63,767 nt of DNA, from positions 1-63,767 of IMG/VR virus record IMGVR_UViG_3300005713_000005; one strand, given 5' to 3'. The DNA is from a virus (taxonomy: Duplodnaviria; Caudoviricetes). The position numbers were made by a program, and so were the translations under genes. Shown piece by piece: positions 18,895 through 42,261 of this stretch (positions are counted from its first letter, which is position 1; each line of letters begins with the position of its first letter). The notes below the pieces were generated by a model. It did not search any database. It saw nothing but the letters and a program-made list of their open reading frames with translations, and was not told the DNA's origin.

Positions 18895-18962
18895 GGGGGC
18901 GCTCTAACCACCTGGCTACGCGACCAATGATCACGACTGGACTTGAACCAGCGACCTCCCCC
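18895..18962 (-). ncRNA. circularly permuted tRNA-like element (3' half precedes 5' half, open at the anticodon loop)
   Basis: Minus strand reads GGGGG AGGTC GCTGG TTCAAGT CCAGT CGTGATC ATT GGTCGCG TA GCC AGGTGGTTA GAGC G CCCCC. Confidence 0.75.
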
Positions 18963-19180
18963 ATAGATCGCAGCTTACACGAATAGGAACGCCCCGGACC
19001 CGTAACCCGGTGCGGCGCCACGGATGGCGTTATCACATCTCGCGCCATTCGGCCGATGGTATAGAAATCGGCGGGCGCCCATGCACACGGACCGGCTTTG
19101 AGATCTGCTCACGGATGGGCACTCCATGTCGGGGGTGGGTCGGATTGCCGTCCGGTTCATTTCGAGAAGTCGGTCCGTCC

Positions 19181-20134
19181 TCATTCCTCCACGCCATAGA
19201 CGCCCACGTCTACGCTTCCCGTCAGCAGTGCGGTTCCTTTTTGAACTCGCACCACTTCGTTGATTCCGAACAGCATGCCCTTGGGTCCGAATGACAGCGT
19301 CGGCGGCTGCGTCAGCCCGCCGTTCGTGAGAGTGGTCCCGATCGTCAGATAGTGCCGAGCGTATGTGATCGTGCCGAGCACGCTTCCGAGTAGGTCGATC
19401 GCAACGTTCGCGAGCGCCAACAGCGTTCCACCGCCGGAGACGCGCATTCCATATAGCCGTACTCGCTTGCCGCTTGCTGGCGTCCATATATCCGTCGCGC
19501 TTGTATTCGCCGCGTTGAGGTTCTGCGACTTGAAAACGTTCTCTGGCGTGCTGTTACCAGAGATGGTCGCGTTCACATTGACGGTGCCGGCGATCGAGAC
19601 CGGCTGCGTCGCGGGCCAATTGCCGACGTTGACGGTGCCCGACACCGTCTGATTCGAAGGAAAGTTTCCAACGCTCACCGTGCCGGAGACGGGTTGAGTC
19701 GCAGGGAAATTCGTAATCGATACTTGCTGCGGCGATGCCCAGGAGACGACTTGCGTCGCCGGGAAGTTCGATACCTGAAACGACGTCGGGAAGTTTCCAA
19801 CGTTGAACGAGCTCGGAAAGTTGTCCACGAGCACGTGCGGGATGTTCGTGACGACGACGTTCTGCGAGCTTGGGAAATTACCGACGTTGACGGTGCCGTT
19901 GACCGGCATCACCGCTGGGAAGTTGGTGACTTCCGTCAGTGCTGGGCCGTCTCGGTTCATCGAGTCCGGCCAGTCAATGTGAAAGAGTGCATCGGGCTCA
20001 ACGCCGCGAATGTATGTCCACTGCGACCCCCATGTAATGAACGGCCAGCCACCGCCAGGCACGCGGGTGCCTTCTGGAAGTGTGAAAGGGAGATTCGGCC
20101 AGTCGGCGTACGGCTGGACCTGTTCTTGCGTCAT
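19181..20134 (-). CDS. NFP-repeat fibre-like protein
   Basis: Repeated V(G/S/T)NFPxxQxV units then a beta-rich C-terminal domain. Confidence 0.7.
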   Translation of the reverse strand: MTQEQVQPYADWPNLPFTLPEGTRVPGGGWPFITWGSQWTYIRGVEPDALFHIDWPDSMNRDGPALTEVTNFPAVMPVNGTVNVGNFPSSQNVVVTNIPHVLVDNFPSSFNVGNFPTSFQVSNFPATQVVSWASPQQVSITNFPATQPVSGTVSVGNFPSNQTVSGTVNVGNWPATQPVSIAGTVNVNATISGNSTPENVFKSQNLNAANTSATDIWTPASGKRVRLYGMRVSGGGTLLALANVAIDLLGSVLGTITYARHYLTIGTTLTNGGLTQPPTLSFGPKGMLFGINEVVRVQKGTALLTGSVDVGVYGVEE

Positions 20135-20191
20135 CGCTGCACCCTCTTGCGGACAGAGGGGGTGGGGTGCAGCGAGTTTACGCTTTGGGGA

Positions 20192-20370
20192 TTACTTCGT
20201 CGCGTTCTCGACCGACGCGGATAATTCTTTCTCGCGGCGCCATCGCTCTAGATAGGCGGCATTGGCGATGAGGTTCGAAACTTTGCGAAATTCTTCCAAC
20301 TGGTCATCAGTAGCTGAGGCAAGGTCGTCCCTTGACGGAATCAGTAGCATGATTTCCGTGATGCGATCAT
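20192..20370 (-). CDS. hypothetical protein
   Basis: Short ORF overlapping the upstream stop; start uncertain. Confidence 0.35.
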
Positions 20371-20633
20371 GGATGCTCATTGGCGTGCTCATCGCTTCCC
20401 GGATTCGCGGCGAGTTCGGCGAGAAGCTCATCGGCATATTGCCGGGCCAAGCCGATCTGATTCTCCATGTCGGTGCACATCTGATGCGGGCACGCCAGCA
20501 ATCCCTGGAGCGCCATTGCCGCGAAGTACTCGCGCTTGGTCAGCCCCAGAGATGCGATAGTGACCGGATCGTCAAGTACATCCCGGGATTCAATTAGCGC
20601 TCCAGGAAACGCCGGCTCGTCTGCGTTGCTCAT
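20367..20633 (-). CDS. conserved phage hypothetical protein
   Basis: PAFP...GLTKREYFAAMALQGLLA motif common in phage early regions. Confidence 0.7.
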   Translation of the reverse strand: MSNADEPAFPGALIESRDVLDDPVTIASLGLTKREYFAAMALQGLLACPHQMCTDMENQIGLARQYADELLAELAANPGSDEHANEHP

Positions 20634-20799
20634 ATATCTCCCCTTGCGGTTTCAGTTCGCCAGTACCAGTCGCCGTCGATATAGATTGCTTCGGCGTGTG
20701 GCATGTCATAGGGCCTCTCGTACTCACGCTCAACATGCCACCAAGTTCGGAGCGGCCCGGCCGGCGCTGGCGGCTGTGGGTCCATTCGACGGTAGTGCA

Positions 20800-21042
20800 T
20801 CACCCCTCCCTCGCCGCTGCGATGGCGGCGTCGATCGCTTTGAGAGTTGCCTCGAGCGGGTTGTACATCTTGATAAACATCTTCCACCGCCCCGCGTCCT
20901 GCTCCAGCGATTCGAAACGACTGAGGATCTCGATTATCTCCTCGACCGTCGGCACAAACACGCCCACGAGCGCGACCTTGCCTGCTTTGCGGCGTTTCAA
21001 CTCGGCAATCAACTCTTGAGCCTGCTTCGCCTCCTCGCTCAC
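20800..21042 (-). CDS. hypothetical protein
   Basis: GTG start with GGAG; DAGRW...AIDAAI motif. Confidence 0.5.
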   Translation of the reverse strand: MSEEAKQAQELIAELKRRKAGKVALVGVFVPTVEEIIEILSRFESLEQDAGRWKMFIKMYNPLEATLKAIDAAIAAAREG

Positions 21043-21154
21043 GGCGCTCTCCTGCAGCTGCATCGCTGCCATCCACATGGGCCGCCGGACTTCACCGACG
21101 AGCGCCACACCCAACCGCTGTCGCGGCACATCCAGCAGACCTGGCGACGCAGGC

Positions 21155-22180
21155 TCACGGCGTGGCCTCGCGCAGTGCTGCTCTGATCTCCATCCAAAGT
21201 TTGCCGAGCATGTTCTGCCCGTCGCGATTCGGACCCCATCCCCAAATGTCATCGCGCCAACTGTTCTCGATCAGTTCACGGTCGCCAGTCTGCAGCAGCT
21301 TGCGGCGAACGTATTCATGCTGCTCCACCTTCGCGCGCAAGATCTGGCGCATCACATCGAATTTGATGGCATCCCAGTCTGGCCGGCGCTGATCTCTGTT
21401 TCGCTCAGCGATCTTGAAAGCCTCGTGTGCCGAGGATGCCGCTCGAACCTTGGCTTGCAGATCGGAGATGCCAAGCGGTTCACCACCGACCAGCATCGGA
21501 AATTTCTCGTAATGATAGGCATGCTCTGATGTGTCGAAATCAAGTCCACGCCAGTGGACGCCAAACGATGAGAAGTTCGACAGGTAGTAGTGGTCCTGCT
21601 CGTAGAAGAACACCTGCGATTCGGTATCGAGCTTGAGCGGACCAGTCTCCGCCCTCCCCAGCCGCTCGCGGAGCTGAGTGTTCTCAGCGATCTGCGCCTG
21701 AATGCCAGCGAACGCCTGACGCTCAATCTCGCGAGCCTCATCGTTGCGCTTTGCTGCGAGATCTTTCCACTCCTGCAACTGCTCGCGGAGCTGGTCGCGC
21801 TCTTTGATCACTCGCTCAAATTTGCATTTCGCGACAGTGCCGTCGTGCTCATACACCTGCATGAGTTCCTGCGCCTGCCCTTCGACCTGCTCCCTCAGCT
21901 GCGCGATCTCTTGCTGTTGTTCCTCTTTGTCGGCAATCAGTTCGCCGATGTTCTGCTTGAGTTGCTGGTCGCTCTCCCTCAGCCCCGCGACGAGGCGGTC
22001 GACGGAGTGCAGCCTTCTAACCTCTGCTGCAAGTCGTTTCATTGCAGTCGCGTTTGCAGAGTCGCTGTATTTCAGCGTGTCAGCCCACTGAAGTGATACC
22101 GCGACAGCCGCTGCATCCACCTCCGTCAGCCCCTCCGCCGCGGCGGGTTGTAGTTCCTCCGGCTTGTCTTGTTCGTTCAT
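21155..22180 (-). CDS. NADAR (YbiA-like) protein with N-terminal coiled coil
   Basis: YLSNFS, TSEHAY, RPDWDAIKFDVM, LLQTGDRELIENS...WG...GQNMLGKLWMEIR. Confidence 0.9.
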   Translation of the reverse strand: MNEQDKPEELQPAAAEGLTEVDAAAVAVSLQWADTLKYSDSANATAMKRLAAEVRRLHSVDRLVAGLRESDQQLKQNIGELIADKEEQQQEIAQLREQVEGQAQELMQVYEHDGTVAKCKFERVIKERDQLREQLQEWKDLAAKRNDEAREIERQAFAGIQAQIAENTQLRERLGRAETGPLKLDTESQVFFYEQDHYYLSNFSSFGVHWRGLDFDTSEHAYHYEKFPMLVGGEPLGISDLQAKVRAASSAHEAFKIAERNRDQRRPDWDAIKFDVMRQILRAKVEQHEYVRRKLLQTGDRELIENSWRDDIWGWGPNRDGQNMLGKLWMEIRAALREATP

Positions 22181-22482
22181 GCGAGCAGGATCCTTCGAGA
22201 GTTGATCGCGCAAATGTCATCGCGTCCTTCGACACGGCTGTACCAGCACAGGTACCAGTCAGCAGCATCCAATCTTCTGACGACCCGTCGAGCCCACATC
22301 TTGCCGGGATAGACGCCACTCGGGATAGATGCGCTGTACTCTGAAAGCCTATCCAGAGTTGCGCCTTCCATAACCGCGTGCGTTTCGTCAATCAAAATCT
22401 CTTCGCGCGCTGGTTGCGGCCAGACAGTAAGAGGGCTTTCATAAGGCGACTCTAGCTTTGGCGGATGTTGCTCGATGTTCAT
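22177..22482 (-). CDS. hypothetical protein
   Basis: EYSASIPSGVYPGKMW motif; overlaps neighbours. Confidence 0.6.
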   Translation of the reverse strand: MNIEQHPPKLESPYESPLTVWPQPAREEILIDETHAVMEGATLDRLSEYSASIPSGVYPGKMWARRVVRRLDAADWYLCWYSRVEGRDDICAINSRRILLA

Positions 22483-22682
22483 TCGGAACCTTCCTCGGAC
22501 GCGCAGTGGACAAGATGTCGCATGGCCAGCATCACGACTTTCGGAATATCGTGGGTGCCTGCGCAATAATTCCTGATCATGCGCGGGGTCATCTCAAGAA
22601 CAGCGCCGGCTTCCGAATATGAGAAGCCGCCATCCTCCATCAGCCGCTTAAACTCGGCTGCGTCTTTCTGACGCTTCGTCAT
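22479..22682 (-). CDS. small XRE-like HTH protein
   Basis: SYSEAGAVLEMTPRMIRNYCAG...IP. Confidence 0.7.
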   Translation of the reverse strand: MTKRQKDAAEFKRLMEDGGFSYSEAGAVLEMTPRMIRNYCAGTHDIPKVVMLAMRHLVHCASEEGSE

Positions 22683-22993
22683 AGCCGGTTGCCTAAGTTT
22701 CGTTCGCTCTCAGCGAGACCGTTGAGCTCGTCGTCCTGAATGAAATACGACTGAACTCGCCTGGCGCTCACATATGTGCGCGCGCAGACTCGAGCTTTAT
22801 CGCCAATGGCGCGCATTGACTCTTCGCACCCCGTGCGGCGCTCTGCGTTCGTATAAACGCCGAGGCAGTACTCGTGCTCGGCGACGAGCCTCACGCATTC
22901 CAACTCTGTGGGCTCAGTTGGTATCGACAGCGCAGTGATGCCGAATGCGATCACGATCCCAGCCGCTATCAGAAAAATCTTCGCAGGATGCAT
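22679..22993 (-). CDS. exported/membrane hypothetical protein
   Basis: Hydrophobic N-terminus, 4 Cys; CGAAGGGGAA RBS. Confidence 0.6.
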   Translation of the reverse strand: MHPAKIFLIAAGIVIAFGITALSIPTEPTELECVRLVAEHEYCLGVYTNAERRTGCEESMRAIGDKARVCARTYVSARRVQSYFIQDDELNGLAESERNLGNRL

Positions 22994-23151
22994 TCAAATT
23001 CCCCTTCGCTTCGGAAACCAGACGAATATCCACAGGCCGTTGGCGTTCCAGCCGAACGAGCGAACGTCCTCACCGCGCCGTCGAAGCTTGCGAGCCCGGC
23101 GACTGTAGACGTAGTGCGTGCGCGTGATGGCGCTCTGCTGGTTGCGAGGCT

Positions 23152-23520
23152 TCATAGATAGACGTCAGCGTCGTCGAGATACCGCTTCAGAGCAGCGTCT
23201 CGCTCGCATAGGTCCAACGTCGCGAGGTGCGCGCGGATCTGTGTACCAGCCTCACCGAAGGCATTGCGCATGATCGTCGGCGAGAAGATCAGGGTATCGG
23301 CCGCCGGGATCTCCTGCGGCGGCTGGCCCTCTCCAGGCGTGAATACGAGGTGATGACTGAAGACGACAGTGCCATTCTTACATCCAAGTCCTCGCCGCAT
23401 CAGCCGCTCGTACGTCTCGCGGTTCTCCCAGTTGCGGCGCTTCTCGTCCATGATGAAATCGTAAGGAGCCTTTGCAGGCTTTTCTTTCTTCTGTCCAAAC
23501 TTCGGATACAGCATCACCAT
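23152..23520 (-). CDS. hypothetical protein
   Basis: CGAAGGGGAA motif next to the ATG. Confidence 0.6.
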   Translation of the reverse strand: MVMLYPKFGQKKEKPAKAPYDFIMDEKRRNWENRETYERLMRRGLGCKNGTVVFSHHLVFTPGEGQPPQEIPAADTLIFSPTIMRNAFGEAGTQIRAHLATLDLCERDAALKRYLDDADVYL

Positions 23521-23746
23521 TTCCCCTTCGTTTCCCACCTATCGAGAGGAGTCGCGCCGGAACCTACAGGTCACCCGGCGCGCTCCATACCACTTTGCAA
23601 ATAGATCTCATAGTTCACAGGGTCTCTTTACCCTGCCGGAACACATGCGGTCCGGGCGCTATGTACTAATGGCTGCAAACCTCCTCTGCTGTGTTTATCG
23701 GGGTCTAACGTTCTAACTTAGTGCCTTGTCCAGGGGCGGGCGCGCG

Positions 23747-23914
23747 TTACTTCACACCCAGCGCATATTCCATTCGAGAGATCACGCGCTGACGAGTCGT
23801 GCCGGTGAACTCCACATAGCCACGAGCCGCAGTCGCACGCTGAAAGTTCACGCCGTTGATGTACCCAATCCACCGATGCAGTTTCGTCGGGTCTCTCACA
23901 ATCGTGTAGCGCAT
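23747..23914 (-). CDS. small early protein
   Basis: GAGGG RBS downstream of conserved hairpin. Confidence 0.5.
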   Translation of the reverse strand: MRYTIVRDPTKLHRWIGYINGVNFQRATAARGYVEFTGTTRQRVISRMEYALGVK

Positions 23915-23926
23915 GTAGATTTCCCT

Positions 23927-23966
23927 CACTCCAGCTTGCCCCGCCGCAGCGAGGCAAGGTGCAGTG
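23927..23966 (-). repeat. conserved mismatched hairpin, copy A
   Basis: CACTGCAC-stem-CTGGAGTG with G.G and C.C mismatches. Confidence 0.7.
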
Positions 23967-24146
23967 TTATCGGACCTGAGTCGCCCGGATACGATGGACC
24001 TGTGTAGTCAGCAATGCTCCGCGCATTTTCGCGATGGCTTCGCTTGCGCTATCCGCACGGCAAGCGCCCACCAGTCTGGTGACGGGAAAGCCAGTCGGAG
24101 TCTGGCTTGTCACTCTCGCGACCAAATTGAACCGATACATTTTCAT
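23967..24146 (-). CDS. small early protein
   Basis: GGAG RBS; lies between hairpins A and B. Confidence 0.5.
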   Translation of the reverse strand: MKMYRFNLVARVTSQTPTGFPVTRLVGACRADSASEAIAKMRGALLTTQVHRIRATQVR

Positions 24147-24163
24147 CTCCAGTTTGTTGCCAT

Positions 24164-24204
24164 CACTCCAGCCTGCACCCTCATCGAAGGCGCAGGGTGC
24201 AGTG
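24164..24204 (-). repeat. conserved mismatched hairpin, copy B
   Basis: Same 8-nt arms as copy A with a different, still paired upper stem. Confidence 0.7.
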
Positions 24205-24205
24205 G

Positions 24206-24355
24206 TTAGTGACGAAGCGCGCTGTAGTTGTTGTCGCGATCTTCGAGCCAGCTTTTCAGCGCTTCGGCATCTCGGTAACTGAAGTACACCTGAGATGGAA
24301 CGCGGCCTCGATAGACCATATATCCAGCGATGACCTTGACGATTTCGTATTTCAT
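24206..24355 (-). CDS. small early protein
   Basis: GAGGT RBS; lies between hairpins B and C. Confidence 0.5.
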   Translation of the reverse strand: MKYEIVKVIAGYMVYRGRVPSQVYFSYRDAEALKSWLEDRDNNYSALRH

Positions 24356-24383
24356 CTTCGTGACCTCGGTGGTTGGTGGATGC

Positions 24384-24426
24384 CACTCACGGCTGCGCGC
24401 CTCTCGTGAGGCCGCAGCTATCAGCG
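24384..24426 (-). repeat. mismatched hairpin, copy C (diverged)
   Basis: CGCTGATA...CGTGAGTG; G.G at pair 5 and a mismatch at pair 8 as in A and B. Confidence 0.5.
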
Positions 24427-24429
24427 TCA

Positions 24430-24684
24430 TCAGCGAGTGCGGCCCGTGTCGCTGGCGTTCGACTGGCGCCGCAAGTTGGCTTCCCACTGAGCCGCGGTCA
24501 TCGCCTGCGTGCGAGTCTCGCGACGGATGTGTGAGCCCGTCGGCATGTCACGCCGGATGGTTTCGAGCTCGACGTTCTGGATGCCGCTCATCTGTGAGCG
24601 CTCCGGCTGAGTCGCGCAACCACCGAGGGCCGAAGCGGCCACGGCCATCGCCAGGATGGCAGAAAAAGTCTTTATGGATCGCAT
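24430..24684 (-). CDS. small lipoprotein
   Basis: Signal peptide with lipobox ALGGC; AAGGAG RBS. Confidence 0.7.
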   Translation of the reverse strand: MRSIKTFSAILAMAVAASALGGCATQPERSQMSGIQNVELETIRRDMPTGSHIRRETRTQAMTAAQWEANLRRQSNASDTGRTR

Positions 24685-24719
24685 TTGAAAATCTCCTTCT
24701 GGTCAGTTGAATAGATCAA

Positions 24720-25091
24720 TCATGCTGACAGTCGGATCGCTCCGGTGTCAGGAATCAAACCTAGAATCTGCATGCGTCGATATACGCCGCCGTCTGTGCG
24801 TTCAAGAGCGGTGGCGATGGCTCCAGCGTCCTTACTTTCGGCGAACATCTCGCGGATCGCGTTGTCGTCGCCGGTCGTGAACGGCTGGCAGGCACGGGCC
24901 GGAATGCCGAAGACAGCGCGCTTGACCTCGACACTGTCGACGTAGCCGAAGAACCACCAGCCGATCTCTATGCTGTTCGGCATGTCGCCGTGCACTTCGA
25001 CCTTTCCATCGACGGTGATGCGGTATTTGCGAGCGCCGAAACGCTTGGCGAGATACTCGCGGATCTTCTGTTCTTGCTGCTTGGTGACCAT
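24720..25091 (-). CDS. hypothetical protein with C-terminal HTH-like segment
   Basis: AGGAG RBS; AIATALERTDGGVYRRMQILGL. Confidence 0.6.
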   Translation of the reverse strand: MVTKQQEQKIREYLAKRFGARKYRITVDGKVEVHGDMPNSIEIGWWFFGYVDSVEVKRAVFGIPARACQPFTTGDDNAIREMFAESKDAGAIATALERTDGGVYRRMQILGLIPDTGAIRLSA

Positions 25092-25109
25092 CTGCGCCGC
25101 TCCTGAATC

Positions 25110-25286: not shown

Positions 25287-25314
25287 CTGTCGCCACTCCT
25301 TAACCAGTGCGGAC

Positions 25315-25343
25315 AGTATGTGGAAATCATTTCCTATTTGCAA
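25315..25343 (-). promoter_or_regulatory. sigma70 promoter TTGCAA-17-CATACT with palindromic operator GGAAAT-N-ATTTCC
   Basis: AT-rich island; 17-nt spacer; dyad at 25322-25334. Confidence 0.7.
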
Positions 25344-27298: not shown

Positions 27299-27329
27299 TC
27301 AATTCCCCTTCGTTGTTGTTCAAAGAAAT

Positions 27330-27420
27330 CCCGCGCGGTGAGATTCGAACTCACGTCTACCGGCACCGGATAACCTCATAGAGATTTGCTGGCCGCACTT
27401 CCGTCTGTGCTACGCGCGAG
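27330..27420 (-). ncRNA. tRNA-like RNA with expanded, anticodon-less arm and no CCA
   Basis: CTCGCGCG/CGCGCGGG acceptor, D arm GCAC-AGACGGAA-GTGC, T arm GTGAG-TTCGAAT-CTCAC. Confidence 0.75.
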
Positions 27421-31088: not shown

Positions 31089-31164
31089 TGGTGCGACCGG
31101 TAGGATTCGAACCCACGTCGTGCGAAGTAGAATTTCGCTGCCTCGTCCACTAGGCTACGGTCGC
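31089..31164 (-). tRNA. tRNA-Arg(UCU), 76 nt, encoded CCA
   Basis: GCGACCG/CGGTCGC acceptor, GCCT/AGGC D stem, GCGAA-ATTCTAC-TTCGC anticodon arm, TTCGAAT loop, ACCA; A20 present. Confidence 0.9.
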
Positions 31165-36063: not shown

Positions 36064-36464
36064 GACTTCACCTTCGCAGCACGATCGATCCGCTCAATCT
36101 CCGCGAGGATGAGAGCACCGGCCTTCACGAGGTCGCGACGGGCGCCGGCTTGATTCTCGGCGCTTCCAGTCGGCTTCCACCATTTGGCCTGCCATGGCCA
36201 CATGATCGGCGGAATTTTGTGCCAGTCACCATCGCCTTGACTGCTCGGGTCCAGCACATCAGCGGCGTGCAGCGCATATGCCGTTGCGGCTGCAGCTAGC
36301 TCTCCCTCGTCGTGCTCCATGTCGTCGTGGCTGGGCGTCCAACCTTCAGCGCTGATCTGGCGCTGGCGCTCCTCGATAACATCAAGAGCGGCGCTTTTCT
36401 GCCCTCGGAGAAGCGAATATTGTTCTCGAAGAGTCGCAATCAAAATCTCGCCATCGGTCTGCAT
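36060..36464 (-). CDS. conserved phage hypothetical protein
   Basis: DVIEERQRQISAEGWTPSHDD...RRDLVKAGALILAEIERIDR. Confidence 0.75.
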   Translation of the reverse strand: MQTDGEILIATLREQYSLLRGQKSAALDVIEERQRQISAEGWTPSHDDMEHDEGELAAAATAYALHAADVLDPSSQGDGDWHKIPPIMWPWQAKWWKPTGSAENQAGARRDLVKAGALILAEIERIDRAAKVKS

Positions 36465-36466
36465 TA

Positions 36467-36955
36467 CTATTTCCCCTTCGCTTTGTGCCAGGCGCGGATA
36501 GTCGCGCTGGTCGGTTTGTGTTCGGCGAACACCTTGAAGATCGCTTCGATCTGCGACTCCACCATCATGGCGATGTGGCAGTCGTCACGTTTCATGCCCA
36601 TCTGTTCTGCAAGCCATCCGTAGGCGCGATACCTCATCGCACCCTGCAGCTTTTTGTTCGGCCGAGACTCCTCTGGATAGGCCAACTGCTGCGCCATGAA
36701 CGGCTTCCAGAGTTGGTCGAACAGTTCGTGCGCGTCCATGCGATACGCACGCAGCGCCTTGCTCGCCAGGATGCCCAGCGGCTTGCCGTTCGGGTGGACA
36801 CCGCAGATCCGGTCACATTCGCCAAGCGGACATTCCCAGATCGGCCCGTAATCTCGCCCACCGTAAACATGCTCGCTCGTCGTGCGATATCTCGCTAATA
36901 AGCCGTGCTCTTGGCACTTCAGACTTGGATGTTGAACGAAGTTACTGAGCTTCAT
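36467..36955 (-). CDS. zinc-finger protein (DUF3268-like)
   Basis: IWEC...CGVH...PLGILA...AHELFDQLW...AYGWLAEQMG...CHIA. Confidence 0.75.
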   Translation of the reverse strand: MKLSNFVQHPSLKCQEHGLLARYRTTSEHVYGGRDYGPIWECPLGECDRICGVHPNGKPLGILASKALRAYRMDAHELFDQLWKPFMAQQLAYPEESRPNKKLQGAMRYRAYGWLAEQMGMKRDDCHIAMMVESQIEAIFKVFAEHKPTSATIRAWHKAKGK

Positions 36956-37260
36956 TTTCCGAACTCTGTGATCCATGCTTTATCGAATGCGCGCATCGCT
37001 GCATCTGGAGTCTTGCCTACTCCGTTAACGCCGCTGTAACTGACGACCCATTCTTGAGTGGAAGGCCTGACCCGCATCTCTGGGCGAAATAAGACTGAAG
37101 GACGCTGCATCTCTGCGGCTGCGATTGAGAAGTCTTGCTGAAAGCATGCAATGGCATGCGAAGCGTCGAGGTGTACAGCGTTGCGAATGATCTCATTCGG
37201 ATCGCAACTTGGGATCCGACTGCGGACCGCATCGTAGATGGCTTGATATGAATCGCTCAT
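36952..37260 (-). CDS. conserved phage hypothetical protein
   Basis: YQAIYDAVRSRI...RPSVLFRP...AMRAFDKAW. Confidence 0.7.
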   Translation of the reverse strand: MSDSYQAIYDAVRSRIPSCDPNEIIRNAVHLDASHAIACFQQDFSIAAAEMQRPSVLFRPEMRVRPSTQEWVVSYSGVNGVGKTPDAAMRAFDKAWITEFGK

Positions 37261-37541
37261 CGTTGTTTGCCCTTTGTAAGACCGGCCAATTCGGCACGAG
37301 TCCCCGCAATCCTCTCTTCCGCAATCATCACTGCGGCTTGGTGCAACTCTGGATATCTGCTCACAACCACGGCGGCAATTGAATTACGCGCAACGTCGTA
37401 GCTGGTGCCAAAACTGCGGCCTTGCATCCAATGGATTTCCATTGAGTTCGGCACAGTGGCACCAGGAGCGAACTCCATCAGCATGTCGAGGTTTTCAAGC
37501 TCGGCTGCCAGTTGTCGCAGCAGTTGAGATTCCATGCTCAT
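37257..37541 (-). CDS. hypothetical protein
   Basis: ATGA-coupled ORF. Confidence 0.55.
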   Translation of the reverse strand: MSMESQLLRQLAAELENLDMLMEFAPGATVPNSMEIHWMQGRSFGTSYDVARNSIAAVVVSRYPELHQAAVMIAEERIAGTRAELAGLTKGKQR

Positions 37542-39154
37542 TCCTGCTCTCCCTTCACATCGCCGGGGCCGACGAACTTGCGGCGGGGGCGGGTCGCGAG
37601 CTTCGGCGCGTCCGCCTTCACGGCCGGCGTTTCGACTGCTTCAGCGGCCGGGATCCCCTCCGTCCGTGTCGCCTCATTCACAGTTGAATTTTGAGAAGAG
37701 GCCGACTCTGGAGCCGTCAGAACGAATTGGGGCTCCTGCCCTTTGATGTGCCCTTCCTCCAGCACGATCGCGTCGCCGCCGACCGGGCGCACGGTCTCGA
37801 TGATGATCTGGCAATCGAACTCCTTCGCGAGATCGGCCACCATCTTGAGCGCGTTGTCGTCCAGCAATGCCGCATTGCGAATCCAGCACAGGCGGATATT
37901 CGGGCGCTTCGCCACCGACAGGGCAACCGCGATGCGCATGCGAGTGCCATCGCCGACCTGCTTCCAGATCACGCCGTTGAGCTTGATGCCCTCGTCATCG
38001 AAGTCGAGACCTTCGACCGGCAACTTGCACGATGCGATGGCATCGCGGCGCGCCTTCTCAATCTTTTCGAGTTGAGCGGTGAGTTGCTCCACTGTCTGGC
38101 GGAGCGATACTTCGGCCTTCAGGTGCTTCTCACGCTGCTGCTTGTCGGCGAACTGCTTGTTCAGTCGAGTCGCGTTCGAGATCTGATCGCGAATTGCCTG
38201 GATCGCTTCGGCCGGCGTTTCGGGCGGTAACTCACCAGCCTCGGCAATCTTGCGCTCTGTCTCTTCACACTTCGCGGTGAGCGCTGCCGCCTCGGCTTCG
38301 ATGGTTTCGCGCTTGCTGACCAGCTTCGCAGTGCCCTCGGTCTTGATGCGCTCTTGCTCGCGCAGCAGCGCGTCGATCTGTCGCTGAATCCTGTCTGCCG
38401 CTTCGTCAGTCGCCTGCTGCACCAGATCCAGTTCGCTCAGCACGCTGTCAAGTTTCAGCCGTGCAGCCTCTCTGTCCTTCTCAATCTGCTCGCGGGCACG
38501 GGCGCGATTCTCTCTGCGGCCCTGAATATTGAGATTCTTTGCGATTGCATCTTCGACCTGCTTCGACAGTTCGCTGACTTCGATGATTGCGTCGCGTGTG
38601 TCTGGAGGCACGCGAATCGCCTCGGCCGCTGCAAGTTCGCGCTTCTGCTCGCGCTTCACATCGGTACGGCGTGCGAATACACCATCGTGCTCGCGCTTGT
38701 TCGCTGCGAAGTCGAAGCCAGGCGCAAAGGATTCGAGCACGCTCACATGATGCTTCGGATCGGCGAGCAGGAATTCCAGCGGGTCCAGAAGGTGATCACT
38801 GACGATCTTCTTCAGATGAGTCGCAGCCTGCGGATACTTGGCGCCGGTCGGCGTCGTTAGTCGCAACTCGTTCTTCAGCTTGCCGTGCGCGTCGTATTCG
38901 TATGTGCGCGTGGCAATGAGGATGCTGCCGTCGTCATCCTTTAGATGCGACTGAATAGCCGCCTCTTCAGTGCCGTGCCTGATCGGATCATCGGGCGAGA
39001 AGCTCGCGTCCTTCAGTGTCGCGAAGATGGCATTGAGTGTGCTCGTCTTGCCTTGATCATTGCCACCGCTCAACTCTGTAACGCCGTCACCGAATGTGAT
39101 GTCGACGGCTTCCAGACGCTGGAAGTTCTCTGCAATCAGTCGTACAAGTTTCAT
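37538..39154 (-). CDS. SMC/Rad50-like ATPase
   Basis: ENFQRL, GGNDQGKTS Walker A, long coiled coil, degenerate C-terminal ABC motifs. Confidence 0.8.
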   Translation of the reverse strand: MKLVRLIAENFQRLEAVDITFGDGVTELSGGNDQGKTSTLNAIFATLKDASFSPDDPIRHGTEEAAIQSHLKDDDGSILIATRTYEYDAHGKLKNELRLTTPTGAKYPQAATHLKKIVSDHLLDPLEFLLADPKHHVSVLESFAPGFDFAANKREHDGVFARRTDVKREQKRELAAAEAIRVPPDTRDAIIEVSELSKQVEDAIAKNLNIQGRRENRARAREQIEKDREAARLKLDSVLSELDLVQQATDEAADRIQRQIDALLREQERIKTEGTAKLVSKRETIEAEAAALTAKCEETERKIAEAGELPPETPAEAIQAIRDQISNATRLNKQFADKQQREKHLKAEVSLRQTVEQLTAQLEKIEKARRDAIASCKLPVEGLDFDDEGIKLNGVIWKQVGDGTRMRIAVALSVAKRPNIRLCWIRNAALLDDNALKMVADLAKEFDCQIIIETVRPVGGDAIVLEEGHIKGQEPQFVLTAPESASSQNSTVNEATRTEGIPAAEAVETPAVKADAPKLATRPRRKFVGPGDVKGEQE

Positions 39155-39172
39155 TGTCGTTCTACTCCGAAT

Positions 39173-39235
39173 AAAAATGCCTCGCCCGTGGTTCAGGGGG
39201 TTGGGTCCACCAGTCGTCGACTGGCTGGGCGAGGC
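39173..39235 (-). terminator. three-way-junction hairpin followed by a U tract
   Basis: 9-bp GCCTCGCCC/GGGCGAGGC enclosing two sub-stems, then ATTTTT. Confidence 0.45.
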
Positions 39236-39244
39236 GTGAAATCG

Positions 39245-39451
39245 TTACAGCGCTCTCATGTTCGAACTGTCAATCGGGCGGCCATCAAGACCGACGTCAG
39301 TAGTCCAATCTGTTCGCGCAAGAAATACTTCGCCGTTGTCTTGCTCAATCACAGCTTCGACTGTGCCCATATCTTCCGTGCCTTCGATCTGCAACTCCGC
39401 GCTCTGATTGCGAACTCGCTGCAGTTTCTCGATCACTTCAAAGACCCTCAT
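39245..39451 (-). CDS. hypothetical protein
   Basis: Coupled ORF. Confidence 0.5.
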   Translation of the reverse strand: MRVFEVIEKLQRVRNQSAELQIEGTEDMGTVEAVIEQDNGEVFLARTDWTTDVGLDGRPIDSSNMRAL

Positions 39452-39663
39452 AACTTCTCCAGCGCATCGCGCGCGTCTTTCGGAAGGTGCTTGTCGAGGG
39501 CTTCGGCGATCGCGCGGTGAAGCAAGAATTCGCTGAGTCCGCCATAGTCCTGCTCATTCATGCCGCGAAACTGAATCCGGCGAACTTGCTGACTCGGCCG
39601 TTCTGAATACGAGAAGATCTCCTTCTGGATCAGCTTCGCGAGCTTTGTTACGCCGGCACTCAC
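39448..39663 (-). CDS. hypothetical protein
   Basis: GGAGG RBS; coupled ORF. Confidence 0.55.
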   Translation of the reverse strand: MSAGVTKLAKLIQKEIFSYSERPSQQVRRIQFRGMNEQDYGGLSEFLLHRAIAEALDKHLPKDARDALEKL

Positions 39664-40826
39664 ATCGCCTCCAAATGCTCGCGCATCTCGTTCGCCTTGA
39701 CGGAAATCTCGAAGGGCATCTCGCGATCGGCAGCGGCGTACGCGTCGACTGCGGCCTTCATGAAGGCGGCGAGCTCTGGTGCGGTCGTGAACGCCTGGAT
39801 CGATGTCATCATCGCGGCATCGTCGCCAATCGGCGGTGCGGTTGGCTTCTCGTCGGCCGGCTTGTCTGCGGGCTTGTCGATGACGATGCGCTTCTGTGCG
39901 GCGTCGGCTGCCGCCTTGAGCGCTGCCTTCTCCTCACCCTTCAGCGTTGCCCACGTTGCGCGCCGACGATCCTCAAGCGCAGCCAGCGTCGCGACCTTGT
40001 CGCATGCTTCGTACTCGGCGGCGGTTGGCGGCTTCACGGGCTCAGTCGATGCCTGACTGCTGCCAAGCGACCATCGAGCAAGCTTCTCGCCAAGATCTTC
40101 GTCAATGGGCTTGCCTGCCGCACCAGTGAAATAGGCTTTCAGATAACCGGGGAGCTTGATCATCATCTTCTCGCCGATCTCGTTTGAGTTCAGCGTAGGC
40201 ACCCCGCCAGCGCCAGGCAGCAGCAGGACTTTGGCGGTCAGTTCGAAGACCAGTTCTTCACTGGCGATCGGCATCCATCCCATGCTCACAACCTTGCCGC
40301 CGCCGAGCTTGAGCTTGTCGCGGGCCTTGAAGCAGAAGATCAGGTGAACGTCTTGCTGCGTGAACCAATCAATGAACTCTCGGAGCGCACGCTTCGGCCT
40401 TCCCCACGCTGGAACGTTGGCCTTTTCTTCAGAGCACTTCCACGCTTGCATGATTCGATCGACTTCGTTTTGGTGCCATTCCAACTGCCCGCCCTTGCCT
40501 TCATGCAGATGGCTCGTCGAGTCAGTGATTACGGTCTTGCATCCCTTGCTCTGAAGGAATTCGATTCCCGCTCGGTAGTTGGCTGGAGTGAACGGTCCGG
40601 GGAACTTTGCGTGACGAAACTTGTATTTATCGTCGTAGTGCCGGGCGCGCTGATTCTCTGAATCCAGCACTCCAATATCACCACCGGCCACACGCTGTAT
40701 TCCTGTCGCGAGACGCAAAGAAGATTCTGTCTTGCCTGAACCGCTCGGACCAACAACGCCAATCAGAAGCTGCGTGCCGTTACGCGGCCCGATCGACTCT
40801 TCGAATTTGATCGTGCTCTCGTTCAT
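39660..40826 (-). CDS. AAA_24 / Sak4-like recombination ATPase
   Basis: GPSGSGKTESSL, LDSE, ITDSTSH; follows the exonuclease gene. Confidence 0.75.
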   Translation of the reverse strand: MNESTIKFEESIGPRNGTQLLIGVVGPSGSGKTESSLRLATGIQRVAGGDIGVLDSENQRARHYDDKYKFRHAKFPGPFTPANYRAGIEFLQSKGCKTVITDSTSHLHEGKGGQLEWHQNEVDRIMQAWKCSEEKANVPAWGRPKRALREFIDWFTQQDVHLIFCFKARDKLKLGGGKVVSMGWMPIASEELVFELTAKVLLLPGAGGVPTLNSNEIGEKMMIKLPGYLKAYFTGAAGKPIDEDLGEKLARWSLGSSQASTEPVKPPTAAEYEACDKVATLAALEDRRRATWATLKGEEKAALKAAADAAQKRIVIDKPADKPADEKPTAPPIGDDAAMMTSIQAFTTAPELAAFMKAAVDAYAAADREMPFEISVKANEMREHLEAM

Positions 40827-41728
40827 CACCACTCCTGCGCCTTTTCCATCCAAGTTTTCAGTGACCAGCCGTGTCCGCGAATCGGCGTGATCTTGTCTAC
40901 GTATGCCGGCCAACGGTTGCGGCGCAGGCAGTCTTCCCAGAGCACGACAGCTCTGTTCCAGCGAACGCGGCCCAACTCGCGCAATTCGCCGTCAGGCGGG
41001 CCGGGATAGATCGCATACGGCGGTTCGATCTCAAGGTGAAGGAACTCCATCGAGATTCGCCCGGCAAGCTCTGGTCGAAGCCGCTCGACTGCGCTCACAT
41101 ATGCGGCGTGTTGAATGTCCCGCCCCATCTCAGTCATTTGCTTGCCAACGACGTCGGGATGTGCGGAATAGATTGTCTTGACGTCATAGATTTTGCCGCG
41201 ATTGAGTTGGAGGCGATCCATGCGACCGCGGCAGAGCACCGGACCATGAATGCCGTCTTCCTCCCACTCGATCGCGACTTCGCTTTCGCCGCCTTCCTCA
41301 GTCAGGTCAATGCCGAACTCAGACTTCAGAGATTCGTGCAGGTAGCTCGCAGCGTCTTCGAGCGATTCATATTGATGCACGAGCATCGGAAGCTTGCCAG
41401 CAGCCTTCGCTTCATCTCGCAACGCCTGCGCCGCTTTCTTCTTCCAGTTGTCGAAGCCATGGATGATTTCCACGTCGGCGCCCTTGCCGAGCAAAAGAGC
41501 ATGGATCACGTCTCCGTTGTCCATCGCCTTCGATTCTTTCTTCTTTATGAAGCCAGGATTTAGCGCTGGGCCGAGGCGTGGGTGATCCTTCCACGCATGG
41601 CGCGGGCTCTCTTCAAGCATCACCTTTGCGATGGATTGCGACAGTGACGGAACTGCGCACGGGTCGTCGCGATACTCAGCCTCACTCACGTCCAGAATGC
41701 GCGCGCGAGGCTGCAGAAGTTCGCTCAT
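40826..41728 (-). CDS. PD-(D/E)XK exonuclease (RecE/DUF3799-like)
   Basis: LSQS...SPRHA, ESEV, CRGRMD, YDVKT, IQHAAY. Confidence 0.85.
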   Translation of the reverse strand: MSELLQPRARILDVSEAEYRDDPCAVPSLSQSIAKVMLEESPRHAWKDHPRLGPALNPGFIKKKESKAMDNGDVIHALLLGKGADVEIIHGFDNWKKKAAQALRDEAKAAGKLPMLVHQYESLEDAASYLHESLKSEFGIDLTEEGGESEVAIEWEEDGIHGPVLCRGRMDRLQLNRGKIYDVKTIYSAHPDVVGKQMTEMGRDIQHAAYVSAVERLRPELAGRISMEFLHLEIEPPYAIYPGPPDGELRELGRVRWNRAVVLWEDCLRRNRWPAYVDKITPIRGHGWSLKTWMEKAQEW

Positions 41729-41761
41729 CAAATTCCCCTTCGTTCCAAACTCAACTCAAGC

Positions 41762-41930
41762 TGTTACAGAGTGAGGCCGGTCGCTACTCCGGCGCAGGGC
41801 TTTAGGTCTGCCCCTAGACAGCCACGCGCACGAGCCTGGAAGCGCATGGACTCATTTCTTCCCCGGTTTATGATCCCGGCATATTTCCAGCTTTTGCGTG
41901 TCTGCTTTCCACGCCGCTCACTCTGTAACA
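41762..41930 (-). ncRNA. 169-nt cloverleaf RNA with non-canonical D- and T-like loops
   Basis: Perfect 14-bp closing stem TGTTACAGAGTGAG; GCGTG-GAAAGCAGA-CACGC; GCCGG-AGTAGCGA-CCGGC. Confidence 0.7.
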
Positions 41931-41948
41931 ACTCTCTAAAGCGTCGCG

Positions 41949-42152
41949 CTAGCCAGCCGTCGGCGGCATCAACTTGCCAGCCTTTTGGAATACGGCCGTT
42001 CTGAAATCGTCGCACAGCCTGTCCAGTGTGATTGGGTCCAGAGCCGACAGCGGAATGGCCAGCTGGTCTCGACTCATATCTGGATTCTCCACCGGCCTGA
42101 CAAAGTTCGGCACCGAAAATGGCTGCAGTTCTAATTCAATCTTCGCTTTCAT
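41949..42152 (-). CDS. conserved phage hypothetical protein flanked by a 13-bp direct repeat
   Basis: GAGGTGA RBS; LQPFSVPNFV...LDRLCDDFRTAVFQKAGK. Confidence 0.7.
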   Translation of the reverse strand: MKAKIELELQPFSVPNFVRPVENPDMSRDQLAIPLSALDPITLDRLCDDFRTAVFQKAGKLMPPTAG

Positions 42153-42175
42153 CTCTCACCTCTGTTTGTTAAAGC

Positions 42176-42261
42176 GTCGCGCGGCAGGATTCGAACCTGC
42201 GGAGACGACTCCGTCTCGCCGTTGGAATGCCGGTGCCTTAGACCACTCAGCCACGCGCGAC
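42176..42261 (-). ncRNA. class II (Ser/Sec-like body) tRNA-like RNA with truncated anticodon arm and no CCA
   Basis: 8-bp GTCGCGCG/CGCGCGAC, D region GCTGAGTGGTCTAAGGC, V arm GAGACG-GAGT-CGTCTC, T arm GCAGG-TTCGAAT-CCTGC. Confidence 0.75.

What the first reader, a model, noticed from the sequence alone, without database searches (positions are those of the whole stretch)
18895..42261. System-level: a set of anticodon-defective tRNA mimics along the early strand
Seen: besides one intact tRNA-Arg there are four same-strand cloverleafs (18895, 27330, 41762, 42176). All keep acceptor, D-like and T-like arms, each has a differently disrupted anticodon arm (opened, expanded, large insert, shortened), and none encodes CCA. 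Two share the 5' sequence TCGCGCGT(A/G)GC and a possible 8-bp acceptor stem. Two end about 20 nt before a CGAAGGGGAA-led gene. Inference: selection keeps the elbow rather than decoding. Possible roles are RNase P/Z punctuation of the polycistronic transcript, or decoys for anticodon nucleases, synthetases or RelA.
Basis: partly seen in the sequence, partly recalled or inferred. Interest (0 to 1): 0.8.

Follow-up and report, generated by a model that had tools for sequence, protein, structure and literature searches.

The report
Three kinds of tRNA-shaped phage RNAs
The four "broken tRNAs" in this soil phage are real but belong to three different classes, and one of them is a strongly conserved, apparently unnamed tRNA-shaped RNA found in hundreds of phages and prophages.

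Summary
All four elements exist on the minus (early) strand at the stated places, and none encodes CCA. They are not one set.

1. 42176-42260 and 27330-27419 are paralogous tRNA-derived elements. Both pass Rfam's tRNA cut-off (39.5 and 39.2 bits against 29). Acceptor, D and T arms are intact, but there is no usable anticodon stem-loop. One relative, on a soil metagenome contig, has the same ends and a different middle.

2. The "41762 cloverleaf" is the 3' part of a 165-nt RNA (41764-41928), here called RNA-X. It has tRNA topology: a 7-bp closing stem, a 2-nt linker, a 5-bp hairpin with loop GAAAGCAGA, a variable domain, then a 5-bp hairpin with loop AGUAGCGN abutting the closing stem. Its core 20-mer occurs in at least 120 IMG/VR contigs, in 99 stretches of 185,579 species genomes, and in cultured Pseudomonas and Ochrobactrum phages. 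All three helices show compensatory changes. In tRNA arrays it occupies a tRNA slot. Rfam 15 does not match it.

3. 18895-18968 is a circularly permuted tRNA-like module of the YrlA type, with no Ro-binding stem and no Rsr gene in the record.

Function is inferred, not shown: excision by tRNA-processing enzymes, giving stable non-decoding RNAs. No RNA data were available.

The parts
42176..42260 (-). tRNA-derived element A. It has a 7-bp acceptor UCGCGCG/CGCGCGA (an eighth pair G-1:C73 is possible), a type-II-like D arm with GG, and a 6-bp variable-arm hairpin. The T arm is GCAGG-UUCGAAU-CCUGC. In the anticodon-arm position, CCGGC-AUUCCAA-CGGCG forms only 1 of 5 pairs. No CCA.
   Evidence: RF00005 39.5 bits against cut-off 29. 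ARAGORN: tRNA-??? with anticodon 'cc'. Sequence. Folds.
27330..27419 (-). tRNA-derived element B, a paralogue of A. It has the same acceptor, UCGCGCG/CGCGCGG (an eighth pair C-1:G73 is possible). The D arm is GCAC-AGACGGAA-GUGC and the T arm is GUGAG-UUCGAAU-CUCAC. The anticodon arm is replaced by a long irregular hairpin capped by UAU. No CCA.
   Evidence: RF00005 39.2 bits, over the cut-off. Sequence. Folds. Alignment with A and L005.
41764..41928 (-). RNA-X, a tRNA-topology RNA of a widespread phage family.
- P1: 41917-41928 pairs with 41764-41775 (12 bp here; 7 bp in the family).
- Linker: CG.
- P2: 41910-41914 pairs with 41896-41900; loop GAAAGCAGA.
- Variable domain: 41794-41895.
- P3: 41789-41793 pairs with 41776-41780; loop AGUAGCGA. 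P3 abuts P1'.
   Evidence: Core 20-mer found in at least 120 IMG/VR contigs and in 99 genome stretches. Covariation. Covariance model R1 scores 73.5 bits (this sequence was in the training set). Fold z = -3.16. No Rfam match.
18895..18968 (-). Circularly permuted tRNA-like module. In order: GGGGG, AGGUC, T arm GCUGG-UUCAAGU-CCAGU, acceptor hairpin CGUGAUC-AUU-GGUCGCG (7 bp, 2 of them G.U), UA, an imperfect D-like arm, G, CCCCC. It lies between the convergent last genes of the + and - blocks (18166-18891 + and 19181-20134 -).
   Evidence: YrlA model positions 23-85, 23 bits against cut-off 69. Sequence. Chance estimate. Gene layout.
31089..31164 (-). Intact tRNA-Arg(UCU) with encoded CCA. It is the only decoding tRNA in the record.
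   Evidence: ARAGORN. RF00005 59.1 bits.
42274..42347 (-). Long hairpin H, upstream of element A. L005 has a matching hairpin between its RNA-X and its tRNA-like element, and the stem sequence differs on both strands.
   Evidence: Fold. Sequences. Compensatory changes were read by eye, not counted.
41937..42182 (-). A 13-nt direct repeat GCGCGACGCUUUA (42170-42182 and 41937-41949) brackets a 67-codon ORF (41949-42152). Without this segment, element A would sit about 9 nt before P1 of RNA-X, as tRNAs do in arrays elsewhere.
   Evidence: Sequence. ORF list. Array spacing elsewhere. The insertion reading is inference.

Best explanation
The early (minus-strand) transcription unit of this soil phage carries three kinds of non-decoding, tRNA-shaped RNA modules besides one real tRNA-Arg.

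(a) Two paralogous tRNA-derived elements (42176-42260 and 27330-27419) keep the acceptor/T-arm stack and the D/T elbow. They have lost the anticodon stem-loop.

(b) One element (41764-41928) belongs to RNA-X, a large, strongly conserved and apparently undescribed family. It has the helix order and helix lengths of a tRNA but its own invariant loops, and a free-to-vary 'anticodon' domain.

(c) One element (18895-18968) is a circularly permuted tRNA-like module of the YrlA type, at the 3' end of the unit.

Shown: their existence, their structures, the covariation in RNA-X, the spread of RNA-X, and the placement of RNA-X in tRNA slots.

Inferred: all are co-transcribed with the early genes. The host's tRNA-maturation enzymes cut them out (RNase P at the 5' edge of the acceptor-like stem, 3' trimming behind it). 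This both punctuates the polycistronic mRNA and releases stable tRNA-shaped RNAs. Those RNAs act through binding to a conserved host component rather than through decoding.
For: Identity of (a):
- RF00005 scores of 39.5 and 39.2 bits, above the cut-off of 29.
- Perfect acceptor and T stems, and G18G19 plus a UUCGAAU T loop, in both elements and in relative L005.
- The three middles cannot be aligned, while the ends match.

Identity of (b):
- 109 of 123 instances had the 3' motif, and 106 of 123 had P1 paired at 6/7 or better.
- On 53 sequences, 99.4% of cells pair, against 78.9% in shuffles and 32-43% when partners are slid. P1 has 6 of 7 pairs and P3 has 3 of 5 pairs with changes on both sides.
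- When instances were collected by the 3' motif instead, 115 of 141 had a 5' motif and 113 of those 115 had P1 at 6/7 or better. P2 then shows compensatory variants: GCGCU/AGCGC, GCGGG/CCCGC, GCACG/CGUGC and GCAUG/CAUGC.
- Model R1 gave matches of 50 bits or more in 67 of 80 genome loci that were not used to build it.

Processing context:
- Of 222 instances, 29 have a tRNA within 1 kb. Those tRNAs are 44 on the same strand against 4 opposite. In 5 cases a tRNA ends 3-5 nt before P1.
- P1 (7 bp) abuts P3 (5 bp), giving a 12-bp stack as in a tRNA, and a 2-nt linker precedes P2.
- No sigma-70-like promoter or intrinsic terminator was found on the minus strand beside any element.

No dedicated partner:
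- No protein family recurs within 5 kb of RNA-X (at most 10 of 107 loci).
- None of 59 ORFs scanned in the window is a tRNA-processing or RNA-repair enzyme.

Identity of (c):
- The YrlA model matches positions 23-85.
- Chen et al. 2014 (PMC4201824, passages read) report that a YrlA with a 7-bp acceptor stem is cut by RNase P and receives CCA.
Against: - There is no expression or RNA-end data at all, so every processing step is inference.
- Family (a) has only three members. L005's copy does not reach RF00005 at E up to 1, and ARAGORN does not call it.
- The leader GTTTC(G/T)ATG and the trailer CGCTT are also shared by element A and L005. The identical ends may therefore reflect recent common descent or recombination rather than selection.
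- Two phages with homologues of the ATPase gene (54-60% identity) have no tRNA-like element upstream of it.
- The RNA-X loops are unlike D and T loops, so recognition by RNase P is an assumption.
- In most RNA-X loci no tRNA lies nearby (193 of 222).
- In cultured phages RNA-X lies after an integrase gene and before what looks by eye like a terminator (Persinger), or beside repressor genes at the head of an operon (PotUPM1, Orimi01). A cis role fits those positions equally well.
- 14 of 123 instances collected by the 5' motif, and 18 of 141 collected by the 3' motif, lacked the partner motif in my scans.
- The P1 statistics come from instances I had already filtered for P1 pairing.
- Element (c) has no detectable relative and an imperfect D stem.
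Confidence: 0.5

Rival explanations
1. Elements A and B (and perhaps the permuted module) are decaying tRNA pseudogenes with no function. Their intact arms reflect recent origin and the fact that only copies with intact arms are detectable.
For: No CCA, no anticodon stem, and only three family members. The pattern found no further member in IMG/VR or in genome contigs. The nearest phages with the same neighbouring gene lack the element. Non-tRNA flanks are conserved along with the ends. Fold energies are ordinary.
Against: Two paralogues are kept in a 64-kb phage genome. All three copies have flawless acceptor and T stems and keep the elbow nucleotides. The middle is replaced rather than point-mutated, and in element B it forms a new long hairpin. 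Odd long tRNA-like elements also lie near RNA-X in other loci (L012, L057, L066, L098).
Confidence: 0.2
2. RNA-X is a cis-acting RNA. For example, it could bind the transcribing RNA polymerase to suppress termination, in the manner of HK022 put RNA (recalled from memory), or act as a leader or stability element. On this view it is not a released tRNA-like RNA.
For: It lies on the same strand as its neighbours. It is conserved across hosts of many phyla with no linked protein, which points to a universal partner such as RNA polymerase. In PotUPM1 and Orimi01 it is the first element after the divergent repressor region. In the window it sits inside a long operon, just before a gene.
Against: In tRNA arrays it takes a tRNA slot with tRNA-like spacing. 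In Persinger it follows the integrase gene and is itself followed by what looks by eye like a terminator. Helix order and helix lengths copy a tRNA. My crude calls of neighbouring gene strand gave no clear positional rule.
Confidence: 0.15
3. The elements are decoys or sponges for host tRNA-targeting defence enzymes or other tRNA-binding proteins. It is compatible with the best explanation as the step that follows release.
For: The elbow and acceptor are kept without decoding capacity. Several classes sit in one early region. The variable 'anticodon' domains look like diversifying modules: L046 carries two RNA-X copies with different middles, and the window carries two tRNA-like paralogues with different middles.
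Against: Anticodon nucleases recognise anticodon loops, which are absent here. The RNA-X loops are not tRNA-like. No defence or counter-defence gene is consistently linked. No test was possible.
Confidence: 0.15
4. The elements act at the DNA level, as recombination or attachment sites.
For: RNA-X lies directly after the integrase gene in phage Persinger. A 13-nt direct repeat made of the 3' end of element A brackets a small ORF. The permuted module sits at the junction of convergent gene blocks. A tmRNA 3' fragment lies in L001.
Against: No tyrosine integrase was found in the window. There is strong strand bias relative to tRNAs (44 against 4). Stems tolerate G.U pairs and covary, while the loops stay invariant.
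Confidence: 0.05

Closest known systems
YrlA, the bacterial Y-RNA-like RNA (Rfam RF02553; Chen et al. 2014, PMC4201824, passages read)
   Same: The 18895-18968 element has the same permuted order: T arm, closed acceptor-like hairpin, D arm, all enclosed by a stem. [quoted passage not shown]
   Different: It scores 23 bits against a cut-off of 69. There is no outer Ro-binding stem and no GNCGAAN0-1G motif (flanks read by eye). No TROVE/Rsr gene is in the record. A better phage example, L090 at 42.9 bits over the full model, also has no TROVE gene in its record.
Phage T4 species 1 and species 2 RNAs (rnaC, rnaD)
   Same: The T4 record annotates both as small stable RNAs lying directly after tRNA-Arg in the tRNA cluster. 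That is the same kind of slot RNA-X takes in arrays. rnaC ends in a canonical T arm with an acceptor-like pairing. It also contains GAGUAGCG twice, the only two copies in the 8-kb locus. That 8-mer is the conserved P3-loop motif of RNA-X.
   Different: Model R1 gives no significant match in the T4 locus. In the predicted fold of rnaC the 8-mer lies largely in stems. There is no counterpart of the GAAAGCAGA hairpin. That the function of rnaC is unknown is recalled from memory; no paper on it turned up in the library.
Irregular tRNAs and allo-tRNAs of soil bacteria and phages (Mukai et al. 2017, PMC5389517, abstract and passages read)
   Same: Soil origin, long variable arms, and possible extra acceptor pairs. 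That paper raises the idea that some act as regulatory non-coding RNAs. One locus fetched here (L112 9815-9911) looks like an 8/4 tRNA(UAU) with CCA.
   Different: Elements A and B have a 7/5 (or 8/5) branch, not 8/4 or 9/3. They also lack a formed anticodon stem-loop, which allo-tRNAs have.
Ordinary phage tRNA genes
   Same: Same strand, and same sequence features in acceptor, D loop and T loop. Both elements pass the RF00005 cut-off.
   Different: No anticodon stem-loop and no encoded CCA, whereas the phage's own tRNA-Arg has both.
Candidate structured RNAs predicted from IMG/VR (PMC10690425, passages read)
   Same: That survey reports 8,495 unnamed candidates from IMG/VR intergenic regions, including tRNA-like ones. 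Parts of RNA-X may be among them.

Membership tests
tRNA (RF00005; decoding tRNA) | Covariance-model score at or above the gathering score of 29 bits | tested here: met
   42176-42260 scores 39.5 bits. 27330-27419 scores 39.2 bits. The feature is not met by 41764-41928 or 18895-18968, nor by the L005 relative.
tRNA (RF00005; decoding tRNA) | 5-bp anticodon stem with a 7-nt loop carrying U33 and an anticodon | tested here: not met
   Element A: CCGGC/CGGCG forms 1 of 5 pairs. Element B: 2 of 5 pairs, and the loop has no U33. ARAGORN reports a 2-base 'anticodon' for A and nothing for B.
tRNA (RF00005; decoding tRNA) | 7-bp acceptor, 5-bp T stem with a UUCRANY loop, and a D loop with GG | tested here: met
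   Read from the sequences and the folds.
tRNA (RF00005; decoding tRNA) | 3' CCA (encoded or added) and aminoacylation | not testable with these tools
   CCA is not encoded. Addition and charging need experiments.
YrlA (RF02553) | tRNA-like domain in the order T arm, closed acceptor stem, D arm | tested here: met
   Model positions 23-85 align to 18897-18960, 23 bits.
YrlA (RF02553) | Gathering score of 69 bits over the whole model, including the Ro-binding stem | tested here: not met
   23 bits, covering the middle of the model only. The flanks show no complementary outer stem and no GNCGAA motif (read by eye).
YrlA (RF02553) | Encoded near a Ro60/Rsr (TROVE) gene | tested here: not met
   PF05731 gave no match in the record at E up to 1. 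The record is estimated to be 88% complete.
allo-tRNA (8/4 or 9/3) | 12-bp acceptor/T branch split 8/4 or 9/3 | tested here: not met
   The T stems are 5 bp and the acceptor is 7 bp. An eighth pair would give 8/5.
RNA-X (provisional family defined here) | P1 (7 bp), CG linker, P2 with loop GAAAGCAGA, variable domain, P3 with loop AGUAGCGN abutting P1' | tested here: met
   The window copy has the exact 20-mer and one difference in the 3' motif. R1 scores it 73.5 bits, but it was in the training alignment.
T4 species 1 RNA (rnaC) | Homology in sequence and structure | tested here: inconclusive
   R1 gives no match better than E = 2.8 in the T4 locus. The two share the 8-mer GAGUAGCG and a slot in a tRNA cluster.

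The most novel reading that the evidence does not exclude
RNA-X is a pan-phage, tRNA-shaped RNA. Its two invariant loops dock onto a universally conserved host machine, such as RNase P, the ribosome or RNA polymerase. Its free-to-vary 'anticodon' domain is a swappable specificity module. The tRNA-derived elements A and B and the permuted module are further members of the same tool-kit of tRNA-scaffolded phage RNAs. T4's long-unexplained species 1 RNA would be a distant relative.
Probability: 0.2. Interest if true: 0.9.

Novelty: new variant of a known kind. Interest (0 to 1): 0.72.

Why it matters
Phages are known to carry tRNAs and a few tRNA-like RNAs, but why is mostly unknown. This window shows three different non-decoding tRNA-shaped modules in one early region.

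It also led to an RNA family (RNA-X) with near-invariant loops. The family occurs in phages and prophages of Proteobacteria, Planctomycetes, Acidobacteria, Saccharibacteria, Cyanobacteria and other groups. It is absent from Rfam 15 and unannotated in the cultured phages that carry it.

Conservation that strong, with no linked protein, points to a universal host target. Because cultured Pseudomonas and Ochrobactrum phages have it, the question can be tested directly.

Tried and rejected
- Close relatives of the phage. There was no DNA match in the cultured-phage collection. The RecE-like exonuclease matches 472 records, the best listed at 34% identity and all below 60%. A scan of viral contigs with that protein found nothing.
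- The tRNA-like pattern TCGCGCGTRGC...GTTCGAATC in IMG/VR gave 2 stretches. Both are chance matches next to a tRNA-Met.
- A pattern for the permuted module found nothing in IMG/VR.
- Sequencing runs: no RNA holder is listed. Only two soil DNA runs hold the stretch, and they may be its source.
- Antisense targets. The variable parts of all four elements have no complementarity within the phage genome beyond shuffled controls (a first script timed out).
- A protein partner for RNA-X. No family is shared within 5 kb. The nearest ORFs in genome loci are a mix of phage, CRISPR and housekeeping genes.
- Positional rule for RNA-X. The strand of neighbouring genes, from a crude longest-ORF call, gave no clear result.
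- A uniform 'anticodon arm' in RNA-X. Only 46 of 105 variable domains fold as one closing helix, so I do not claim one.
- Literature. No paper holds the RNA-X 17- to 20-mers. Word searches for tRNA mimics or decoys, phage tRNA-like non-coding RNAs and phage RNA-motif surveys found nothing that describes RNA-X. Nothing usable turned up on T4 species 1 RNA.

Full report
**Setting.** The window is a complete IMG/VR virus record of 63,767 bases. It is linear and estimated to be 88% complete. Only soil DNA runs hold it. Plus-strand structural genes run to 18891. A minus-strand block runs from about 47 kb down to 19181. Plus-strand genes resume at 47267 with a replication initiator. The minus block encodes the following:
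- a RecE-like exonuclease;
- an AAA_24 ATPase and an AAA_15 ATPase;
- a HerA/FtsK-like ATPase;
- an ECF-type sigma factor and a LuxR-type regulator;
- a NADAR-domain protein;
- a Dam methylase and an HNH endonuclease.

None of the 59 ORFs scanned is a tRNA-processing or RNA-repair enzyme. No TROVE/Rsr gene and no tyrosine integrase was found. The cultured-phage collection holds no DNA relative.

**The observation.** ARAGORN finds tRNA-Arg(TCT) at 31089-31164 and a 'tRNA-???' at 42174-42261. Rfam's tRNA model scores:
- 59.1 bits at 31092-31164;
- 39.5 bits at 42176-42260;
- 39.2 bits at 27330-27419 in a single-genome search.

The cut-off is 29 bits. A permissive Rfam scan of 18000-43500 adds only a weak YrlA match at 18897-18960 (23 bits, model positions 23-85). 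It finds nothing at 41762-41935. All elements lie on the minus strand. Only tRNA-Arg is followed by CCA.

**Elements A (42176-42260) and B (27330-27419).** The features they share:
- Both start UCGCGCG-U(G/A)-GC.
- Both have a flawless 7-bp acceptor stem, with an optional eighth pair.
- Both have a D loop with GG and a 5-bp T stem with loop UUCGAAU.

Where they differ:
- In A, the 17 nt in the anticodon-arm position (CCGGC-AUUCCAA-CGGCG) form 1 of 5 pairs. A 6-bp variable-arm hairpin follows.
- In B, the anticodon arm is replaced by a long irregular hairpin capped by UAU.

A strict pattern for both ends found one relative among the metagenome contigs (L005 887-980). It found none in genome contigs. 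A looser pattern in IMG/VR gave only two chance hits.

L005 shares with A the T arm, the acceptor 3' strand, the discriminator and the trailer CGCTT, plus the leader GTTTC(G/T)ATG. It shares GGCCAGCAA...UGAGGUU with B. Its middle is different again, 47 nt with a 6-bp hairpin. It is not called by ARAGORN, and RF00005 does not match it at E up to 1.

So the family keeps its ends and replaces its middle. But there are only three sequences, detection required intact ends, and non-tRNA flanks are conserved too. Two phages with homologues of the downstream ATPase (54-60% identity) lack any such element. The CGAAGGGGAA context downstream is this phage's common ribosome-binding site, with 9 exact copies in the window.

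**The '41762' element is RNA-X.** L005 also carries, upstream of its tRNA-like element, a stretch matching window 41770-41930 at both ends. The 20-mer GGCGTGGAAAGCAGACACGC from its 5' part occurs in:
- 99 stretches of the 185,579-species genome set, spread over many phyla;
- cultured phages: Persinger, PotUPM1, Orimi01 and Orisa01-03 (Pseudomonas), and POI1126 (Ochrobactrum). There it is unannotated or overlapped by a 'hypothetical protein'.

The architecture, in order:
- P1, 7 bp (12 bp in the window);
- the linker CG;
- P2, GCGUG[GAAAGCAGA]CACGC;
- a variable domain, giving whole lengths of 97-323 nt;
- an A, then P3, GCCGG[AGUAGCGN]CCGGC;
- P1' follows with no spacer.

The helix order, the 2-nt linker and the 7+5-bp stack therefore copy a tRNA.

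Evidence for this structure:
- 109 of 123 instances had the 3' motif and 106 of 123 had P1 at 6/7 or better.
- On 53 sequences, 99.4% of cells pair. Shuffles give 78.9% and slid partners give 32-43%. P1 has 6 of 7 pairs, and P3 has 3 of 5, with changes on both sides. These instances had been filtered for P1 pairing, and P2 could not vary because it lay inside the search word.
- To remove that bias I collected instances by the 3' motif instead. Of 141, 8 were at contig edges. 115 had a 5' motif with up to 6 substitutions (78 exact), and 113 of those 115 had P1 at 6/7 or better. P2 then shows the compensatory variants GCGCU/AGCGC (5 times), GCGGG/CCCGC (4 times), GCACG/CGUGC, GCAUG/CAUGC and ACGGG/CCCGU. 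The loop stays almost invariant.
- Covariance model R1 gave matches of 50 bits or more across the whole model in 67 of 80 genome loci not used to build it.
- Two of the weaker genome hits are not genes. They are CRISPR spacers that carry the 20-mer (L167 and L176). So hosts do meet this sequence on invading DNA.

Rfam 15 matches neither the window copy nor L114. No paper in the library holds the 17- to 20-mers. A 2023 survey lists 8,495 unnamed IMG/VR candidates, and I could not see its supplementary alignments (PMC10690425). 'Undescribed' therefore means only 'not found by these searches'.

**Context of RNA-X.**
- No protein family recurs within 5 kb (at most 10 of 107 loci).
- Of 222 instances, 29 have a tRNA within 1 kb. 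Those tRNAs are 44 on the same strand against 4 opposite. In five cases a tRNA ends 3-5 nt before P1.
- 5 of 105 unique copies carry a canonical T arm inside the variable domain.
- L046 has two copies with different middles.
- In Persinger, RNA-X follows the integrase gene and is followed by what looks by eye like a terminator hairpin with a U-run.
- In PotUPM1 and Orimi01 it lies beside the repressor genes, at the head of an operon.
- In the window it lies between a 67-codon ORF and the RecE-like gene. That ORF is bracketed by a 13-nt direct repeat made of the 3' end of element A. Without the ORF, element A would sit about 9 nt before P1, which is the array arrangement.

**The 18895 element.** Its order is GGGGG, AGGUC, T arm, a 7-bp hairpin closed by AUU, UA, an imperfect D-like arm, G, CCCCC. 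This is the YrlA-type permutation.

Such modules (T arm plus closed 7-bp stem) occur 5 times in 1.79 Mb of fetched sequence, against 1 in five shuffles. One of them, L090 4225-4330, matches the whole YrlA model at 42.9 bits. Neither that record nor three others searched has a TROVE gene.

The window's copy lacks the outer Ro-binding stem and any relative. It lies between the convergent ends of the two gene blocks, and no terminator-like site is nearby. In M. smegmatis, a YrlA with a 7-bp acceptor stem is cut by RNase P and receives CCA (PMC4201824, passages read).

**How it most likely works.** Shown: three classes of non-decoding tRNA-shaped modules on one strand, with structural conservation strongest for RNA-X. 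Inferred: they are co-transcribed with the early genes. No minus-strand promoter or terminator pattern lies beside them. tRNA-maturation enzymes then excise them, which both cuts the polycistronic mRNA and releases stable RNAs. What those RNAs bind is unknown. The lack of a linked protein and the cross-phylum invariance of the RNA-X loops argue for a universal host component. The rivals are pseudogenes (for A and B), a cis-acting role for RNA-X, decoys, and DNA-level sites. Each is weighed in its own section of this report.

**Comparison with known systems.**
- A and B pass the tRNA model but fail the anticodon-arm test. They are tRNA-derived, not tRNAs.
- The permuted module works like the tRNA-like domain of YrlA. 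It fails three of YrlA's defining features.
- RNA-X resembles T4's species 1 and species 2 RNAs in its slot after a tRNA. It shares GAGUAGCG with rnaC, which holds the only two copies in its 8-kb locus. But R1 finds no match there, and the predicted fold of rnaC puts that 8-mer mostly in stems. This is a lead, not a membership.
- allo-tRNAs (PMC5389517) share the habitat and the irregularity, but not the 8/4 or 9/3 branch.

**Verdict.** The finding is real and more interesting than a set of pseudogenes. The strongest result is RNA-X. The weakest point is the complete absence of RNA data.

Noticed in passing
L167 (spacer around 4475-4505) and L176 (1-33): The RNA-X 20-mer occurs inside CRISPR spacers. 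Clear repeat arrays flank it in two bacterial genome assemblies, and Cas1 genes are among the nearest ORFs of the genome loci.
   Followed up: partly
window 21155-22213 (-): A 352-aa protein with a C-terminal NADAR domain (E = 6e-30) and an unassigned N-terminal 200 residues. This is a possible counter to ADP-ribosylating defence.
   Followed up: no
window 42170-42182 and 41937-41949 (-): A 13-nt direct repeat GCGCGACGCTTTA brackets a 67-codon ORF (41949-42152). The first copy is the 3' end and trailer of tRNA-like element A. It looks like an insertion between element A and RNA-X.
   Followed up: partly
window 42274-42347 (-); L005 about 726-800: A long GC-rich hairpin beginning GAGUCCCGCCCC lies upstream of the tRNA-like element in both sequences. 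The stem sequence differs on both strands. No U-run follows it.
   Followed up: partly
L227 (phage T4) 2909-3047 (-): T4 species 1 RNA (rnaC) contains GAGTAGCG twice, the only two copies in the 8-kb locus. It ends in a canonical T arm with an 8-bp acceptor-like pairing. The 8-mer equals the conserved P3-loop motif of RNA-X.
   Followed up: partly
L090 4225-4330 (+): A phage contig with direct terminal repeats carries a full-length YrlA-like RNA (42.9 bits, E = 1.5e-6), but its record has no TROVE/Rsr gene.
   Followed up: partly
L112 9815-9911; L057 4967-5083; L066 3183-3335; L012 2121-2245; L098 1144-1217 (coordinates with RNA-X on the + strand): Other contigs that carry RNA-X hold odd long tRNA-like elements. 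One looks like an 8/4 tRNA(UAU) with a long variable arm and CCA. Others have inserts that bring them to 117-153 nt.
   Followed up: no
L001 8679-8744 (-): A 3' fragment of tmRNA (T arm, acceptor strand and CCA) lies in a viral contig. It is probably an attachment-site remnant.
   Followed up: no
window, 9 exact sites (for example 27303-27312 and 41733-41742): CGAAGGGGAA is an over-represented extended ribosome-binding context: 16 matches with up to 1 mismatch, against 3.9 expected.
   Followed up: yes
RNA-X P3 loop, across 105 unique copies: Loop positions 1 and 8 co-vary in part: A..C 48, A..A 22, G..U 8 and A..U 5. A.C and G.U are isosteric wobble pairs, which hints at a closing pair around a GUAGCG hexaloop.
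   Followed up: no
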